A stretch of 64,000 nt of DNA from the sequence record PQ100635.1; one strand, 5' to 3'. The DNA is from Escherichia phage PNJ-9. Below are positions 3,089 to 45,874 of the stretch, one piece after another. Position numbers and translations under genes: made by a program. Below the pieces are notes generated by a model. The model worked only from the letters and a program-made list of their open reading frames with translations, made no database searches and was not told where the DNA came from. How positions within the stretch are numbered: the stretch's first letter is position 1; every line of letters begins with the position of its first letter.

Positions 3089-5414
<2,326 letters not shown>

Positions 5415-41723: not shown

Positions 41724-42086
41724 ATGAAAGCATATCAAATTCTTGAAGGTGAACATAAAGGCACTATTTATTTTGAAGACGGTACTCAAGCCCGGATTAT
41801 TGTCTCTAAGACTTTTAAAGAAGACGCTATTGTAGATCCAGAAATTTTCTACGGTTTGAATGCTCGTGAAATTGAAATTGAACATCAACCTAAAGTTAAA
41901 ATTGAAGGTGGTCAGCACCTGAACGTTAACGTTCTGCGTCGTGAAACTCTGGAAGATGCAGTTAAGCATCCGGAAAAATATCCGCAGCTGACCATCCGTG
42001 TATCCGGATATGCAGTTCGCTTTAACTCTCTGACTCCGGAACAGCAGCGCGACGTTATCGCTCGTACCTTTACTGAGAGTCTATAA
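41724..42086 (+). CDS. autonomous glycyl-radical cofactor (GrcA/YfiD-like)
   Basis: 120-aa ORF whose C-terminal half [63 protein letters not shown] carries the RVSGY glycyl-radical motif and matches E. coli GrcA as recalled. Confidence 0.85.
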
Positions 42087-42310: not shown

Positions 42311-42545
42311 AGACATCAAAGGCTACAAGCCACATACCGATGATAAAATCAGTAAAGTGAACGCTATTAAAGACGCAGAAGTTCGTTTAGGACTTATTCT
42401 GGACGCCCTGGCAGAAGAAGCATTATCAGCAAATACTCCTGAAGCTCTGACGGCTTTGTCCCAATTGAACTGTGCTAAAGAACGCCTAAAGGAAGCTAGT
42501 ATGTGGGCTTGTCGTGCGGTATTTCGACCAGAGGAAAAATACTAA
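42300..42545 (+). CDS. hypothetical protein
   Basis: 81 aa from ATG 42300 overlapping the previous stop. Confidence 0.45.
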
Positions 42546-42844
42546 TGGCTCAAATCCTATCAGGCTTTGGAACTCATTATGAAGCATCTCGACGCATAAC
42601 TGAAAGCAATCCTTTTGGCCTTGTTCCGAAGCACAAGAAAATTCAAAGCCTTGATGACTTTGAGAATCGCCTATGGGCCCTCTTTAATGAGTACAAGGCA
42701 TATCTGAAAGAAGACGCTGACGATTGTCTTGAAGAAGATGAGATTGCGTATTACGAACAACGCCTTGAACAGCTCAAGAACTTCCACCAGGTTCGTGACG
42801 AAGTATCTAAAGCAGTTAAAAAGTTAATTCCTTTCAAAGAGTAG
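42545..42844 (+). CDS. hypothetical protein
   Basis: 99 aa from ATG 42545 ([21 protein letters not shown]...). Confidence 0.45.
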
Positions 42845-42893
42845 TTTACTTCTCCTCTAGTTGTGTTACTATAGACCTGTCAACTAGAGGAGA
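42844..42893 (+). promoter_or_regulatory. T4-type early promoter with 13-bp perfect inverted repeat sequestering the regB SD
   Basis: GTTTAC 42844-42849, 17-nt spacer, TACTAT 42867-42872; arms TCTCCTCTAGTTG (42851-42863) and CAACTAGAGGAGA (42881-42893); SD GAGGAG in the downstream arm. Confidence 0.6.
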
Positions 42894-42901
42894 AATCAAA
42901 A

Positions 42902-43360
42902 ATGACTATCAATTCTGACGTTTTTATCCGCCGTAATAAACTCCGTCGAATCTTTGAAACGGAGTTCCGCAAAATAAATGCCGGTATAAAAGATGCTGCA
43001 AAGTCTCTTGGACTACCAGGCTTTCATATCAAGTATTCTCAACATCTCTTAGATCGTGCTATCCAGAGAGAAATAGATGAGAACTACGTTTTTGAATTAT
43101 TTCGTAAAGTAAAAAATCATGTTAAAGAAGTTGCAGAATTTTTATCAATGCCGGCACGTCCAGATGTTGATGAAGATTTTGTCGAAGGTGTCGAATATCG
43201 CCCAGGCCGTTTAGAAATAACTGATGGAAATCTTTGGTTAGGACTTACAGTTTGTCGCGAAAATCCAGCATTCAAAATGAAGACTCTTCAATGCAGAATG
43301 GCTATTATTAACAATAAACGACTACCAGGAAAAGCTTCTAAAGCAGTGATTAAAATCTAG
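42902..43360 (+). CDS. regB: sequence-specific endoribonuclease RegB
   Basis: 152-aa ORF MTINSDVFIRRNKLRRIFETEFRKINAG...; matches T4 RegB as recalled in length and sequence. Confidence 0.8.
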   Translation: MTINSDVFIRRNKLRRIFETEFRKINAGIKDAAKSLGLPGFHIKYSQHLLDRAIQREIDENYVFELFRKVKNHVKEVAEFLSMPARPDVDEDFVEGVEYRPGRLEITDGNLWLGLTVCRENPAFKMKTLQCRMAIINNKRLPGKASKAVIKI

Positions 43361-43368
43361 AGGTAAAC

Positions 43369-43911
43369 ATGAGAAAAGCACTACTCGCTGGTCTATTTGC
43401 TCTTTCATTATCAGCACATAGCTCCGAGCATACTTTTAGTAATGTCCAACTCGATAACTTGAATTATGCTTATCAGTTTGGGGAACAGTTTTCTAAGGAT
43501 GGAAAATTTAAAACGCATGAAAATATGCATAAGAAAGGACTTGGATACATAATGGCCGCAATACTATGGCAGGAATCATCTGCCGGTATTAATCTTAAAG
43601 ATAAGAAAGGTCACCATGCGTATGGAATGTTCCAAAACTATCTACCAACAATGAGGGCAAGAATTAACCAGCTTGGTTATAATATGACTGATGCCCAAAT
43701 TAAGAAAATGCTATCTAAGCGGTCTAATTCAACCAGATGGGCTTATATCGAATTTTCTTATTGGTTAAATATACATAACGGGGATATAAGAAAAGCTATA
43801 TCCTCATATAATGCGGGATGGAAGACAAGTGCTGGAAGTAAATATGCTTCTGAAGTCCTAGAAAAGGCTAATTACCTTAAATCAAATAAACTACTGGAAA
43901 TAAAAGAATGA
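43369..43911 (+). CDS. secreted lytic-transglycosylase-like (SLT domain) protein
   Basis: 180-aa ORF with N-terminal signal peptide and SLT motifs WQESSAG, GMFQ, YNAGW. Confidence 0.65.
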   Translation: MRKALLAGLFALSLSAHSSEHTFSNVQLDNLNYAYQFGEQFSKDGKFKTHENMHKKGLGYIMAAILWQESSAGINLKDKKGHHAYGMFQNYLPTMRARINQLGYNMTDAQIKKMLSKRSNSTRWAYIEFSYWLNIHNGDIRKAISSYNAGWKTSAGSKYASEVLEKANYLKSNKLLEIKE

Positions 43912-44255
43912 CCAAAGTGTTGGCTTTAATAGTTGGCTTGGTTTCATTTAACGCTCTTGCTAATACTACATATACTGATGTAACGGAGTATACAAATAGA
44001 ACGGCGTCTGATTATTGTGGTAAAAGTCAAGAGTGTAAAGTAGATTTTTCACAAAAATTGTTATATGCGTATAAAGACGGAGAAAAAGATGGGGCGTCTA
44101 GTAGGTTCAAGGCGTCTACCTTAATTAAAAGATACTATAAAAAATGGCAAATATTAGAATGCTCGGTGGCGGAACCTAAAGATAAGGCAGCATGCAATTC
44201 TATGGTGGACCGTCTAGTTGACTCTTATAATAGAGGACTTGCAGCAAGTGATTAA
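43908..44255 (+). CDS. secreted Cys-containing protein
   Basis: 115-aa ORF with signal peptide MTKVLALIVGLVSFNALA and six Cys. Confidence 0.5.
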   Translation: MTKVLALIVGLVSFNALANTTYTDVTEYTNRTASDYCGKSQECKVDFSQKLLYAYKDGEKDGASSRFKASTLIKRYYKKWQILECSVAEPKDKAACNSMVDRLVDSYNRGLAASD

Positions 44256-44715
44256 AAACTATATCAAGGGCGATATTGTCGCCCTGTTTTCTAAAGGTAA
44301 TAATATTGCTCATGGGTGTAATTGTTTTCATACAATGGGCGCTGGTGTGGCAGGACAATTAGCAAAGGCTTATCCAAAAATTTTAGAAGCCGATAAACTT
44401 CAAACCGAATTCGGTGATGAGACTAAACTCGGGACTTATTCGGTTTATGAAAAATATTTTAAGACCCATAAAGCTTATTGCTTTAATCTTTATACACAGT
44501 TTGAGCCGGGACCTAATTTTGAGTACTCTGCTTTAATGAATTGTATAATAGAATTAAATGAATTCGGAAAGAATAAGATAACAAAGCCTGTAATTTATAT
44601 GCCAAGAATTGGTGCAGGTATCGGTGGTGGAAACTGGGATGTCATCGAAGAGATTTTAGATACGTATTCCACTAAACTAGAAATTGTGATTGTTGATTGG
44701 GAACCGTTATTATGA
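44248..44715 (+). CDS. macrodomain protein (TARG1/OARD1-like ADP-ribose hydrolase candidate)
   Basis: Motifs KGDIV...AHGCNCFHTMGAGVA and MPRIGAGIGGGNW resemble the TARG1-type macrodomain signature; no in-frame ATG, so the start is GTG 44248 or TTG 44239/44218. Confidence 0.65.
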   Translation: MIKNYIKGDIVALFSKGNNIAHGCNCFHTMGAGVAGQLAKAYPKILEADKLQTEFGDETKLGTYSVYEKYFKTHKAYCFNLYTQFEPGPNFEYSALMNCIIELNEFGKNKITKPVIYMPRIGAGIGGGNWDVIEEILDTYSTKLEIVIVDWEPLL

Positions 44716-44924
44716 ATATACATTATCCACATCCATATGACCCAAAGAATAAGGTAGTAATTATTCGTCAATGGGAACGCATTTGTCGTACCAAATGTCC
44801 AATTAATAGTCCACATGATGTAGATAAAGACTACATCGGAACATTCGTTGAATATACCTTTATTGATAAGAAAGGTCGTAAACAGCATGTAGAAGAATAC
44901 TGCTTAAAGGTGACATGGTTATGA
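44712..44924 (+). CDS. hypothetical protein
   Basis: 70 aa from ATG 44712 (MNIHYPHPYD...), overlapping the previous stop. Confidence 0.45.
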   Translation: MNIHYPHPYDPKNKVVIIRQWERICRTKCPINSPHDVDKDYIGTFVEYTFIDKKGRKQHVEEYCLKVTWL

Positions 44925-45106
44925 GTTTAAGTAAAGAACAAAAAGACAAACTCTTTTCTCTTATCCACGAAGTTATGGATAAAAATAGTGAATTGGAAAA
45001 AGTTTGTAATGAATGCGGTCCTTTTAGTGCAAACGAGTACGAAGAACTTTCTAAAGAATTCGATAATAAAGAACAAGAACTTATTAATTATATAAATTCC
45101 TTATGA
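44915..45106 (+). CDS. small acidic protein, REQ-family paralogue
   Basis: 63 aa MVMSLSKEQKDKLFSLIHEV... Confidence 0.45.
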   Translation: MVMSLSKEQKDKLFSLIHEVMDKNSELEKVCNECGPFSANEYEELSKEFDNKEQELINYINSL

Positions 45107-45291
45107 TTACTCGCGAACAAAAGAACGAAATATTATTTTTAGTTGGTGAAATTATTAGTTTAGAAAAGGATTTGTCTTTTGAAATATCTTCTGAATATGG
45201 AGATGCCGAAACATATTACGAATTAGTAAAATCTATCGATAAAGCTGAAAATGATTTAAAAACATATTTAGAAAATTTAACTAAGGATTAA
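45103..45291 (+). CDS. small acidic protein, REQ-family paralogue
   Basis: 62 aa MITREQKNEILFLVGEII...; tandem with the previous gene, same architecture. Confidence 0.45.
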   Translation: MITREQKNEILFLVGEIISLEKDLSFEISSEYGDAETYYELVKSIDKAENDLKTYLENLTKD

Positions 45292-45292
45292 A

Positions 45293-45874
45293 ATGGCTAG
45301 TTTAATTTTTACATATGCCGCTATGAACGCTGGTAAGTCTGCTTCATTACTTACAGCCGCACATAACTATAAAGAACGTGGCATGGGTGTATTAGTTCTT
45401 AAACCGGCTATTGATACTCGCGATTCAAAAGGTGAAATAGTCTCTCGTATTGGTATTCGTCAGGACGCCAATATAATTACAAAAGACATGGATATCTTTG
45501 AATTCTATAAATGGGCTGCAGCACAAAAGGATATTCATTGTGTATTTGTTGACGAAGCTCAATTCTTAACTACTGAAAAGGTGTATCAACTTAGTCGTAT
45601 TGTTGACGTATACAATGTGCCGGTAATGGCATATGGACTACGAACAGATTTTAAAGGTAATCTATTTGAAGGTTCTCAAGCATTAATGGCTATTGCCGAT
45701 AAGCTTGTTGAACTTAAAGGTGTCTGTCATTGCGGTAAAAAGGCCACAATGGTAGCTAGAGTCACGGAAGACGGACTTCCAATTACAGATGGCAGTCAAA
45801 TTGAAATTGGTGATACTGATAGATATGTGTCATTATGCCGGAAGCATTGGAATGATTTGACAGGGTTGTTATAA
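45293..45874 (+). CDS. tk: thymidine kinase
   Basis: 193-aa ORF with P-loop AMNAGKS and C-terminal Zn motif CHCGKK...CRKHW; matches T4 Tk as recalled. Confidence 0.9.
   Translation: MASLIFTYAAMNAGKSASLLTAAHNYKERGMGVLVLKPAIDTRDSKGEIVSRIGIRQDANIITKDMDIFEFYKWAAAQKDIHCVFVDEAQFLTTEKVYQLSRIVDVYNVPVMAYGLRTDFKGNLFEGSQALMAIADKLVELKGVCHCGKKATMVARVTEDGLPITDGSQIEIGDTDRYVSLCRKHWNDLTGLL

What the first reader, a model, noticed from the sequence alone, without database searches (positions are those of the whole stretch)
43369..44715. TARG1-like macrodomain protein without an ATG start, beside two signal-peptide proteins
The 44248..44715 product has the paired motifs KGDIV...AHGCNCFHTMGAGVA and MPRIGAGIGGGNW, which resemble the TARG1/OARD1-type macrodomain (ADP-ribose glycohydrolase) as I recall it. 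The frame has no ATG; translation must start at GTG 44248 or TTG 44239/44218 inside the upstream gene. Immediately upstream are a secreted SLT-domain lytic transglycosylase (QESS, GMFQ, YNAGW) and a secreted Cys-containing protein. A phage macrodomain could reverse host ADP-ribosylating defence (DarT-like) or tune the phage's own ADP-ribosyltransferases; early periplasmic enzymes in the same operon are unexplained.
Basis: partly seen in the sequence, partly recalled or inferred. Interest (0 to 1): 0.66.

Follow-up and report, generated by a model that had tools for sequence, protein, structure and literature searches.

The report
T-even phage anti-DarT macrodomain (AdfM)
This is the RB69-like phage's copy of the T4 gene tk.4 (adfM), a small ADP-ribose-removing enzyme that in T4 protects the phage from the bacterial DarTG2 defence; the gene, its fold and its likely role are already described, so the finding is correct but ordinary.

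Summary
Window 44248..44715 (+) encodes a 155-aa macrodomain with the quoted motifs and no in-frame ATG ahead of the domain core. The window is a Mosigvirus (RB69-like T-even phage), and the gene order regB, vs.1, vs, tk.4, tk.3, tk.2, tk.1, tk matches T4. The protein is 85% identical to T4 Tk.4.

The start is GTG 44248. The same codon is ATG in 39 of 46 orthologs, including T4. In 98%-identical relatives a TAG stop lies between the nearer upstream TTG and the GTG.

The TARG1 catalytic Lys84/Asp125 are replaced by an invariant Gln84 and by Gly126. That matches the lysine-independent SCO6735 enzyme, which removes DarT-made thymidine ADP-ribose.

The two upstream genes are vs.1 (signal peptide plus SLT-like lytic transglycosylase, noted since 2006) and vs, the annotated "valyl-tRNA synthetase modifier".

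Novelty: already known. Small residual points are the Gln-type active site, a conserved hairpin in the gene's 5' end, and the signal-peptide-like N-terminus of Vs.

The parts
42902..43360 (+). regB (endoribonuclease), the first gene of the tightly packed early gene string that contains the finding
   Evidence: Pfam REGB_T4 E 5e-69. Annotated in PNJ-6, HX01 and T4 at the same relative position.
43369..43911 (+). vs.1 ortholog: 180-aa protein with a signal-peptide-like N-terminus (aa 1-18, 43369-43422, AHS|SEH) and an SLT-like lytic transglycosylase domain (E69 in WQESS, YGMFQ 85-89, SYNAGW 146-151)
   Evidence: Pfam SLT scores 19.4 bits for this sequence, below the gathering score of 21.3. All 15 orthologs hit SLT, best E 4e-7. 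E69, S70, G86, Q89, Y147, N148 and G150 are invariant. The N-terminal hydrophobic window has KD 2.42, like the rI control. It is 82-83% identical to T4 Vs.1. PHROG 600 E 3e-66.
43908..44255 (+). vs ortholog (annotated 'valyl-tRNA synthetase modifier'): 115 aa, signal-peptide-like N-terminus (aa 1-18, 43908-43961, ALA|NTT), four invariant Cys, invariant C-terminus SMVDRLVDSYNRGL
   Evidence: PHROG 1256 E 2e-35. Annotated in PNJ-6, HX01 and T4. Alignment of 10 orthologs. KD window 2.91. AlphaFold model pLDDT 84.3 with four helices and residues 1-16 unstructured.
44233..44237 (+). Shine-Dalgarno GAGGA for the macrodomain gene, inside the YNRGL codons of vs, 10 nt before the GTG
   Evidence: Read from the sequence. 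The same GAGG(A/T/G) lies at the same place in T4 and most T-even orthologs.
44248..44715 (+). Macrodomain gene, ortholog of T4 tk.4 / adfM: 155 aa, GTG start overlapping the vs stop (GTGATTAA), stop overlapping the tk.3 start (ATGA). Key codons: H22 44311-13, N25 44320-22, Q84 44497-99, P119-G128 loop 44602-44631
   Evidence: Pfam Macro. 85% identity to T4 Tk.4. Start codon comparison. AlphaFold pLDDT 95.9. Foldseek. Active-site alignment. PADLOC DarG E 4.8e-9 and NCBIfam DarG 33 bits.
44267..44285 (+). Conserved 8-bp hairpin (AGGGCGAT-ATT-GTCGCCCT) followed by GUUUUCU, inside codons 7-13 of the macrodomain gene; terminator- or attenuator-like, function unknown
   Evidence: Terminator-like scan. 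RNAfold -13.0 kcal/mol, z -3.2. 100% pairing in 12 distinct orthologs with one compensatory G-C to A-U pair.
44712..44924 (+). tk.3 ortholog (DUF7202), translationally coupled downstream neighbour
   Evidence: Pfam DUF7202 E 2e-37. Annotated CDS in PNJ-6, HX01 and T4.

Best explanation
Window 44248..44715 is the Mosigvirus ortholog of T4 tk.4 (adfM). It is a stand-alone, early-expressed macrodomain ADP-ribosyl glycohydrolase. Translation starts at GTG 44248, coupled to the end of vs through a GAGGA Shine-Dalgarno sequence. The protein most likely binds ADP-ribose attached to thymidine in phage DNA by the host DarT2 toxin and hydrolyses the ribose-base bond. That would restore replicable DNA, so the protein acts as an 'orphan antitoxin' that lacks the DarT-binding domain of DarG. 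Its active site carries an invariant Gln84 (with N25 and the glycine-rich loops) where TARG1 and DarG carry the catalytic Lys. This predicts a lysine-independent, water-mediated mechanism like that proposed for SCO6735. Shown: the fold class, the orthology, the start codon by comparison, and the T4 knockout phenotype (from the literature). Inferred: that this phage's protein has the same phenotype, that the substrate is DNA-linked ADP-ribose, and the catalytic role of Gln84. The two upstream genes are T-even synteny neighbours in the same early gene string: vs.1, a putative periplasmic SLT-like transglycosylase, and vs. They are not demonstrably part of the same function.
For: Identity: the window is 99.5% identical to Mosigvirus PNJ-6 over 42900-45300. 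The gene order is identical in T4. The protein is 85% identical to T4 Tk.4.

Fold: Pfam Macro scores above its gathering score. The AlphaFold2 model has pLDDT 95.9 and pTM 0.91. Foldseek PDB matches are TARG1 at E 1.2e-10, Poa1p at TM 0.80, DarG from T. aquaticus and M. tuberculosis at TM 0.72-0.78, BT1257 at TM 0.77, and SCO6735. PADLOC DarG E 4.8e-9 and NCBIfam antitoxin_DarG E 3.9e-8 cover only the macro part.

Function of the ortholog: in a T4 transposon library, tk.4 was the single significant hit under DarTG2, and a clean knockout sensitised T4 to DarTG2 (bioRxiv 10.1101/2025.11.20.689424).

Chemistry: window Q84 aligns with TARG1 K84 and SCO6735 Q85 (TARG1 sequence verified). Q84 is invariant in 51 homologues. 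SCO6735 Q85 is essential and the enzyme removes DarT thymidine-ADPr (PMC9411070). DarG N22, the second most important residue (PMC5179494), most likely corresponds to the invariant N25. That correspondence is inferred from the SCO6735 N27 and phiKZ columns, because no DarG sequence was aligned.

Precedent: the phiKZ macrodomain gp104 removes DarT2-made ADPr in vitro (PMC13309987).

Start codon: ATG sits at the homologous codon in 39 of 46 orthologs and GTG in the Mosigvirus clade. A TAG two codons upstream in L004 and L005 excludes the TTG. T2 Tk.4 was detected in a proteome (bioRxiv 10.64898/2026.06.19.733364).

Early expression: an early-promoter-like GTTTAC-17-TACTAT lies upstream of regB, and the genes from regB to tk overlap or abut.
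Against: No enzymology exists for any T-even Tk.4; the preprint says removal of ADP-ribose from DNA 'seems likely'. The catalytic Lys of DarG and TARG1 is missing. The extended DNA-clamping 'mobile loop' and Lys34 of SCO6735 are also missing (A32; 8-residue loop), so DNA specificity cannot be read off the sequence. The closest solved relatives include Poa1p, an ADP-ribose-1''-phosphate phosphatase. The phenotype was measured in T4, not in a Mosigvirus. The supporting paper is a preprint. The GTG start has no direct protein-level evidence in this phage.
Confidence: 0.8

Rival explanations
1. The protein is an ADP-ribose-1''-phosphate phosphatase (Poa1p-like, the 'A1pp phosphatase' of the database annotation) or an O-acetyl-ADP-ribose deacetylase. 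It would clear small ADP-ribose metabolites made during RNA repair or sirtuin reactions, not DNA adducts.
For: Annotated 'phosphatase' (A1pp motif) in T4, HX01 and PHROG 335, and 'O-acetyl-ADP-ribose deacetylase' by JGI. Poa1p is among the best sequence and structure matches (1e-8; TM 0.80).
Against: These names are domain-level transfers, not tests. The T4 knockout has a specific DarTG2 phenotype. Members of this macrodomain class (TARG1, DarG, SCO6735) all reverse DarT thymidine ADP-ribosylation (PMC9411070).
Confidence: 0.1
2. The macrodomain tunes or reverses the phage's own ADP-ribosylation or RNAylation of host proteins by Alt, ModA and ModB.
For: T-even phages encode three ADP-ribosyltransferases that act early (PMC10468400, listed; PMC8120803). 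The macro gene sits in an early gene string. SCO6735 and TARG1 also act on protein ADP-ribose.
Against: From general knowledge of these families: Alt, ModA and ModB modify arginine, a linkage that macrodomains are not known to cleave and that ARH-type hydrolases remove. The macro family occurs in many phages without any mod/alt linkage. No phenotype has been reported.
Confidence: 0.05
3. The macrodomain degrades or sequesters ADP-ribose-derived immune signals (cADPR isomers from Thoeris or TIR systems) or other NAD-derived products of host defence.
For: Iyer et al. [quoted passage not shown]
Against: That is a purely contextual prediction. The DarTG2-specific genetic hit in T4 points to a DNA adduct. 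No SLOG, NADAR or Nudix partner lies next to this gene.
Confidence: 0.05

Closest known systems
T4 Tk.4 = AdfM (anti-DarT factor Macrodomain), bioRxiv 10.1101/2025.11.20.689424
   Same: 85% amino-acid identity, the same 155-aa length, the same position between vs and tk.3, the same SD and the same 5' hairpin. All family-invariant residues (H22, G23, N25, Q84, P119, G122, G124) are shared.
   Different: The start codon is GTG instead of ATG. The overlap with vs is 8 nt (GTGATTAA) instead of 4 nt (ATGA), and the vs C-terminal tail differs. The DarTG2 phenotype was not measured for this phage.
SCO6735 (Streptomyces coelicolor) / Bt_1257 subclass of ALC1-like macrodomains (PDB 5E3B, 2FG1)
   Same: Best PDB sequence match (BT1257, 6e-11). 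Gln sits at the position of the TARG1/DarG catalytic Lys, and Ala or Gly at the TARG1 Asp125 position. SCO6735 removes DarT thymidine-ADPr without a catalytic Lys.
   Different: It lacks the 5-6-residue-longer 'mobile loop' and the DNA-positioning Lys34 (A32 here). It is a phage early gene, not a bacterial chromosomal gene under a DNA-damage promoter.
DarG antitoxin macrodomain (T. aquaticus 5M31/5M3E, M. tuberculosis 5M3I)
   Same: Same fold class (TM 0.72-0.78). Detected by the PADLOC and NCBIfam DarG models over the macro part. The functional target is presumed to be the same, DarT2-made ADPr-thymidine.
   Different: No C-terminal DarT-binding domain and no adjacent darT. The catalytic Lys80 is replaced by Gln. 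The NCBIfam score of 33 bits is far below the equivalog cut-off of 250.
Human TARG1/OARD1 (PDB 4J5R/4J5S)
   Same: Top Foldseek hit (E 1.2e-10, 24-25% identity). The loop length between strand and helix is identical (Q84/K84 to Y93). The motifs AH..[SN]....MGAG[IV]A and MPRIG.G....W are shared.
   Different: Lys84 is Gln and Asp125 is Gly, so the lysyl-ADPr covalent mechanism of TARG1 cannot operate.
phiKZ gp104, also named AdfM (Cell Rep 2026, PMC13309987)
   Same: A phage-encoded stand-alone macrodomain that counters DarTG2. Removal of ADPr from DarT2-modified DNA was shown in vitro.
   Different: Only marginal sequence similarity (BLASTP E 6e-4 over 23 residues). phiKZ gp104 keeps the DarG-like T-K..W motif, whereas the T-even type has T-Q. 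These are probably independent acquisitions that share a name.

Membership tests
Macro domain (Pfam PF01661) | Profile match above the curated gathering score | tested here: met
   28.5 bits against a cut-off of 22, E 1.6e-6, covering profile positions 2-117 of 118.
Macro domain (Pfam PF01661) | Alpha/beta macro fold with glycine-rich ADP-ribose-binding loops | tested here: met
   AlphaFold2 pLDDT 95.9 with mixed beta-alpha elements. 144 PDB matches at E<=1e-3, and the 50 best listed are macrodomains or macrodomain-scaffold designs. The loops MGAGVA and PRIGAGIGGG are conserved.
TARG1/OARD1-type glycohydrolase | Closest structural neighbours belong to the ALC1-like/TARG1 class | tested here: met
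   The top Foldseek hits are TARG1, Poa1p, DarG and BT1257.
TARG1/OARD1-type glycohydrolase | Catalytic Lys84 (nucleophile) and Asp125 | tested here: not met
   Gln84 and Gly126 occupy the aligned columns. Q84 is invariant in 51 homologues (TARG1 sequence verified against PDB 2LGR).
DarG antitoxin (type II TA, DarTG2) | N-terminal macrodomain homologous to DarG | tested here: met
   PADLOC DarG E 4.8e-9 over model positions 4-145 of 329. Foldseek TM 0.72-0.78 to 5M31, 5M3E and 5M3I.
DarG antitoxin (type II TA, DarTG2) | C-terminal DarT-interacting domain; full-length equivalog score | tested here: not met
   The protein is 155 aa and matches only positions 4-146 of the 338-position NCBIfam model, scoring 33 bits against a cut-off of 250.
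DarG antitoxin (type II TA, DarTG2) | Encoded next to a darT toxin gene | tested here: not met
   The neighbours are vs and tk.3; no ART-like gene lies in 41.5-47 kb.
DarG antitoxin (type II TA, DarTG2) | Catalytic Lys80 (T-K motif) | tested here: not met
   T83-Q84 here. The equivalence of DarG K80 and TARG1 K84 is taken from PMC5179494 together with the window-TARG1 alignment. No DarG sequence was aligned directly.
SCO6735/Bt_1257 subclass of ALC1-like macrodomains | Gln at the catalytic-Lys position (SCO6735 Q85, essential) | tested here: met
   Window Q84 aligns with SCO6735 Q85 and BT1257 Q85. The essentiality of Q85 comes from PMC9411070.
SCO6735/Bt_1257 subclass of ALC1-like macrodomains | Extended 'mobile loop' (about 5 residues longer than in DarG and TARG1) and DNA-positioning Lys34 | tested here: not met
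   The loop from Q84 to Y93 has 8 residues, as in TARG1; SCO6735 and BT1257 have 13-14. The K34 position is A32 here.
T-even Tk.4 / AdfM | Orthology: sequence identity and conserved position vs - tk.4 - tk.3 | tested here: met
   85% identity. The same gene order appears in T4 and in about 30 T-even-like loci.
T-even Tk.4 / AdfM | Confers resistance to DarTG2; removes ADP-ribose from DarT2-modified DNA | not testable with these tools
   The genetic evidence exists only for T4. No biochemistry exists for any T-even protein.
SLT lytic transglycosylase (Pfam PF01464), for vs.1 at 43369..43911 | Profile match above the gathering score | tested here: inconclusive
   This sequence scores 19.4 bits against a cut-off of 21.3. 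All 15 orthologs match at E<=0.1, best 4e-7. Many database homologues carry a precomputed PF01464 hit. There is no PDB sequence match, even with a profile.
SLT lytic transglycosylase (Pfam PF01464), for vs.1 at 43369..43911 | Catalytic Glu in the E-S motif, plus the G-[LM]-[MF]-Q and [AS]-Y-N-x-G motifs | tested here: met
   E69-S70, G86..Q89, and S146-Y147-N148-x-G150 are invariant in 15 orthologs. The motif definitions come from general knowledge of family 1 lytic transglycosylases.
Sec-type signal peptide (vs.1 and Vs) | Basic n-region, hydrophobic h-region of 10-15 residues, small residues at -3/-1 | tested here: inconclusive
   A heuristic was used, not SignalP. KD(10) is 2.42 for vs.1 and 2.91 for Vs, against 2.51 for the periplasmic control rI and <=1.56 for cytoplasmic controls. 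Candidate cleavage sites are AHS|S and ALA|N. The hydrophobic character is conserved while the sequence varies. Vs residues 1-16 are unstructured in the model.

The most novel reading that the evidence does not exclude
T-even AdfM may be a third mechanistic type of anti-DarT macrodomain. It combines the short loop architecture of TARG1 and DarG with the lysine-free, Gln-dependent active site of SCO6735, and it has neither the SCO6735 DNA clamp nor the DarT-binding domain of DarG. It may therefore have a broader or different substrate range than phiKZ AdfM or DarG, for example ADP-ribose on DNA, RNA or protein. Its expression could in addition be gated by the conserved hairpin and U-tract 20 nt into the gene.
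Probability: 0.3. Interest if true: 0.4.

Novelty: already known. Interest (0 to 1): 0.2.

Why it matters
The finding shows that reading sequence alone can recover a real counter-defence gene and its likely target. The gene was recognised as an A1pp/macro domain in T4-like phages by 2006 (PMC1524935). Its T4 ortholog was assigned as the anti-DarTG2 factor AdfM in 2025. The practical value here is limited to four points. First, the start codon in the Mosigvirus clade is fixed as GTG. Second, the T-even enzyme lacks the DarG/TARG1 catalytic lysine and carries the SCO6735-type glutamine, which matters for anyone designing catalytic-dead mutants: Q84 or N25, not a lysine. Third, 'AdfM' currently names two barely related phage macrodomains. 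Fourth, there are two untested side observations, a 5' hairpin in the gene and a signal-like N-terminus on Vs.

Tried and rejected
- **Upstream TTG starts:** TTG 44239 is rejected. It lies 2 nt after the SD, and in L004 and L005 it is followed directly by an in-frame TAG. TTG 44218 is rejected by homology only: T4 and 38 other orthologs start at the codon homologous to 44248, and most have no upstream in-frame start.
- **TARG1-type mechanism:** rejected because K84 and D125 are absent.
- **Bona fide DarG:** rejected because there is no C-terminal domain and no darT.
- **vs.1 against PDB sequences:** a single-sequence search and a 15-sequence profile search both returned nothing.
- **Vs:** the profile search against the PDB gave only noise. 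Foldseek of the Vs model gave no match better than E 0.6. Pfam, NCBIfam and PADLOC gave nothing.
- **Rfam on 42500-45500:** no family at E<=1.
- **Generic sigma-70 promoter scan:** not enriched, 20 sites against 21.9 expected, so it says nothing about the operon.
- **MAFFT register for phiKZ gp104:** the T-K was placed one column off the T-Q of the window protein. I read the motif by eye (FPTKDNW against LYTQFEP), so that equivalence is an inference.
- **Papers not held:** Miller et al. 2003 (PMC150520) and LeRoux et al. 2022 (PMC9250638) are not in the library. I therefore could not check the original basis of the vs assignment or the DarTG2 sensitivity of RB69.
Full report
**What the window is.** The stretch 42900-45300 is 99.5% identical to Escherichia phage PNJ-6. 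It is 97-99% identical to other members of the genus Mosigvirus (HX01, moskry, SHSML-52-1), which are RB69-like T-even phages. The gene order on the + strand is a grcA-like gene, three small ORFs, regB, vs.1, vs, tk.4, tk.3, tk.2, tk.1, tk, rI.1, rI. Phage T4 has the same order. The finding therefore covers the orthologs of T4 vs.1 (43369-43911), vs (43908-44255) and tk.4 (44248-44715).

**Checking the observation.** The ORF and the quoted peptide motifs are present. There is no in-frame ATG ahead of the domain core. The macrodomain assignment is well beyond chance on several counts:
- Pfam Macro scores 28.5 bits against a gathering score of 22.
- PDB sequence matches are BT1257 (6e-11), yeast Poa1p (1e-8), SCO6735 (7e-5), DarG (5e-4) and TARG1 (1e-3).
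- Homologues occur in 2,795 of 50,697 phage records, variously annotated 'macro domain protein', 'phosphatase', 'Appr-1-p processing protein' or 'O-acetyl-ADP-ribose deacetylase'.
- PNJ-6 and HX01 annotate exactly this CDS with the GTG start.

**The start codon.** In T4 the homologous codon is ATG (…AGGATTGAGTACTAGATGATTGTAAAATATATCAAGGGC…), preceded by the same GAGGA. Among 46 orthologous loci whose tblastn match begins at residue 1, the codon is ATG in 39 and GTG in 4. Three of those four are the Mosigvirus-type loci that are 97-98% identical to the window. In two of these (L004, L005) the sequence reads TTG-TAG-CAA-GTG. The TTG equivalent to 44239 is therefore followed at once by a stop codon, and only the GTG can open the frame. 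TTG 44239 also lies only 2 nt after the Shine-Dalgarno GAGGA (44233-44237), whereas the GTG lies 10 nt after it. So the start is GTG 44248, an ATG-to-GTG change in this clade. It overlaps the vs stop (GTGATTAA), and the macro stop overlaps the tk.3 start (ATGA). This is the usual translational coupling of T-even early genes. A T2 proteome detected Tk.4 (bioRxiv 10.64898/2026.06.19.733364), so the ortholog is translated. A non-ATG start is allowed by the bacterial code and is not in itself remarkable.

**Fold and class.** An AlphaFold2 model built on 51 homologues has pLDDT 95.9 and pTM 0.91. Foldseek against the PDB ranks TARG1 first (4J5R, E 1.2e-10, 24-25% identity). Next come Poa1p (TM 0.80), T. 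aquaticus and M. tuberculosis DarG macrodomains (TM 0.72-0.78), BT1257 (0.77) and SCO6735. Coronavirus and alphavirus macrodomains score lower. The PADLOC DarG model (E 4.8e-9) and the NCBIfam antitoxin_DarG model (E 3.9e-8) also match. Both match only over the N-terminal macro part, and the NCBIfam score of 33 bits is far below the 250-bit equivalog cut-off.

**Active site.** I verified my TARG1 sequence against PDB 2LGR. I then aligned it, together with BT1257 and SCO6735 (sequences read), to the family. Window Q84 falls in the column of TARG1 K84 and SCO6735 Q85, and window G126 falls in the column of TARG1 D125. The flanks support this register: T83 aligns with T83, both loops have 8 residues, Y93 aligns with Y93, and the predicted strand ends at residue 84 while the helix starts at 93. 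Q84 is invariant in all 51 homologues, as are H22, G23, N25, P119, G122 and G124.

The literature gives the meaning of these positions. TARG1 K84 and D125 form the catalytic dyad, and DarG K80 is the equivalent lysine and is essential (PMC5179494). SCO6735 and Bt_1257 lack both residues and have Gln85 at that position. Gln85 is essential, and SCO6735 still removes DarT-made thymidine ADP-ribose; the authors propose a backbone-positioned water as the mechanism (PMC9411070). The window protein thus has the SCO6735-type Gln but the short loop of TARG1 and DarG. It lacks the longer 'mobile loop' and Lys34 of SCO6735 (A32 here). DarG N22, the next most important residue, most likely corresponds to the invariant N25. 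That correspondence is inferred from the SCO6735 and phiKZ columns, since no DarG sequence was aligned.

**What it does.** A 2025 preprint (HIDEN-SEQ, bioRxiv 10.1101/2025.11.20.689424) screened a T4 transposon library on a DarTG2-expressing host. It found tk.4 as the single significant hit, and a clean knockout sensitised T4 to DarTG2. The gene was renamed adfM (anti-DarT factor Macrodomain). The authors state that enzymatic removal of ADP-ribose from DNA 'seems likely' but did not assay it.

A separate study showed that phiKZ gp104, also named AdfM, removes ADP-ribose from DarT2-modified TNTC DNA in vitro and protects phiKZ from DarTG2 (PMC13309987). I fetched phiKZ gp104. It is only marginally similar to the window protein (BLASTP E 6e-4 over 23 residues), and it carries the DarG-like FPTKDNW motif, whereas the T-even family has LYTQF. 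The two 'AdfM' proteins are therefore different lineages of the same class.

The window protein is 85% identical to T4 Tk.4 and sits in identical synteny. The best-supported explanation is that it is this phage's AdfM: an early, stand-alone DNA ADP-ribosyl glycohydrolase that undoes DarT2 modification of thymidine by a lysine-independent mechanism. The fold, the orthology and the T4 phenotype are shown. The substrate and the chemistry are inferred.

**Rival functions.** I considered three alternatives and rated them low: an ADPr-1''-phosphate phosphatase or OAADPr deacetylase, reversal of the phage's own Alt/ModA/ModB modifications, and degradation of ADPr-derived immune signals as suggested in general terms by Iyer et al. 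(PMC9503650). None is excluded biochemically.

**The two upstream genes.** vs.1 (180 aa) has a basic and hydrophobic N-terminus (MRKALLAGLFALSLSAHS|SEH). Its hydrophobicity equals that of the periplasmic control rI, while cytoplasmic controls score much lower. Its own Pfam SLT score is just under threshold, at 19.4 against 21.3 bits. All 15 orthologs I aligned hit SLT (best E 4e-7), and the E-S, G-M-F-Q and S-Y-N-A-G motifs are invariant. This similarity was already reported in 2006 (PMC1524935). No solved structure matches by sequence.

The 'secreted Cys-containing protein' is vs, annotated as the valyl-tRNA synthetase modifier. It has a signal-like N-terminus (MTKVLALIVGLVSFNALA|NTTY), four invariant cysteines and an invariant C-terminus. 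Its AlphaFold model (pLDDT 84) has four helices and an unstructured N-terminus of 16 residues. Cys37/Cys43 and Cys85/Cys96 flank the helix-helix turns. No PDB fold matches it. That pattern looks extracytoplasmic, which sits oddly with a role on a cytoplasmic synthetase. I could not read the original literature on the vs assignment. The same preprint reports that vs is the gene most depleted in minimal medium.

**Linkage.** The string regB, vs.1, (vs), macro … tk is conserved in about 32 of 79 viral loci, all T-even-like. The remaining macro homologues have none of these neighbours. The adjacency is inherited synteny in a tightly packed early gene string, not evidence of a periplasmic-plus-macrodomain module. 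A T4-early-like promoter (GTTTAC-17-TACTAT, 42845-42873) precedes regB. The generic sigma-70 scan was not informative.

**Side observations.**
- An 8-bp hairpin followed by GUUUUCU lies at 44267-44285, 20 nt into the macro gene. Its free energy is -13 kcal/mol with z -3.2. It is kept in T4 and in 12 distinct orthologs that encode KGD[IL][VI]AL. One compensatory G-C to A-U change is made of two synonymous substitutions, and the hairpin uses GGC and GCC codons. It is absent where the peptide differs. The evidence is modest: probably one evolutionary event, and peptide conservation confounds it.
- A 14-bp hairpin (42850-42894, -21.6 kcal/mol, z -4.7) pairs the regB GGAG Shine-Dalgarno. The promoter-like -10 element lies in its loop.

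**Verdict.** The object is already known, both as an annotated macrodomain gene of T-even phages and, since 2025, as the anti-DarTG2 factor AdfM. What remains new is minor: the GTG start of the Mosigvirus clade, the Gln-type active site, and the two unexplained side features.

Noticed in passing
window 44267-44285 (+), tail to 44292: A conserved hairpin plus U-tract lies 20 nt inside the macrodomain gene: AGGGCGAT-ATT-GTCGCCCT then GUUUUCU, -13 kcal/mol, z -3.2. It is kept in T4 and 12 distinct orthologs, with one compensatory G-C to A-U pair made of two synonymous changes. It could be an intragenic attenuator or terminator, an Hfq-binding 3' end (a preprint reports ArcZ-tk.4 RNA chimeras in T2), or a by-product of the KGDIVAL codons.
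   Followed up: partly
window 43908-44255 (+): The gene annotated 'valyl-tRNA synthetase modifier' (vs) has a Sec-type signal-like N-terminus and four invariant Cys placed at helix-helix turns of a predicted four-helix protein. It has no structural relative in the PDB. This extracytoplasmic look is hard to reconcile with binding a cytoplasmic synthetase. The mature size would be about 11 kDa.
   Followed up: partly
window 42845-42894 (+): The regB leader holds a 14-bp hairpin (-21.6 kcal/mol, z -4.7) that pairs the regB GGAG Shine-Dalgarno. A T4-early-like promoter (GTTTAC-17-TACTAT) has its -10 element in the hairpin loop. Read-through transcripts would then hide the ribosome-binding site, while transcripts from the proximal promoter would not.
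   Followed up: partly
L083 22518-23006 (phiKZ gp104) versus window 44248-44715: Two phage proteins both named AdfM are barely related (BLASTP E 6e-4). They differ at the catalytic position: phiKZ has the DarG-like T-K..W, and the T-even type has an invariant T-Q.
   Followed up: partly
window 41724-42086 (+): A GrcA/YfiD-like autonomous glycyl-radical cofactor (T4 vs.6 ortholog; …[25 protein letters not shown]…) lies upstream in the same strand block.
   Followed up: no
window 44915-45106 and 45103-45291 (+): Two adjacent, overlapping small genes (tk.2 and tk.1 orthologs) both match Pfam DUF7438 (E 4e-19 and 7e-15), so they are a tandem paralogue pair of unknown function.
   Followed up: no
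window 44233-44247 versus L003 (T4) 3891-3910: The SD of the macro gene lies inside the invariant YNRGL codons of vs. The vs C-terminal tail and reading-frame offset differ between T4 (…GLSTR*, ATGA overlap) and this clade (…GLAASD*, GTGATTAA overlap), through a 1-nt length difference in the spacer.
   Followed up: partly
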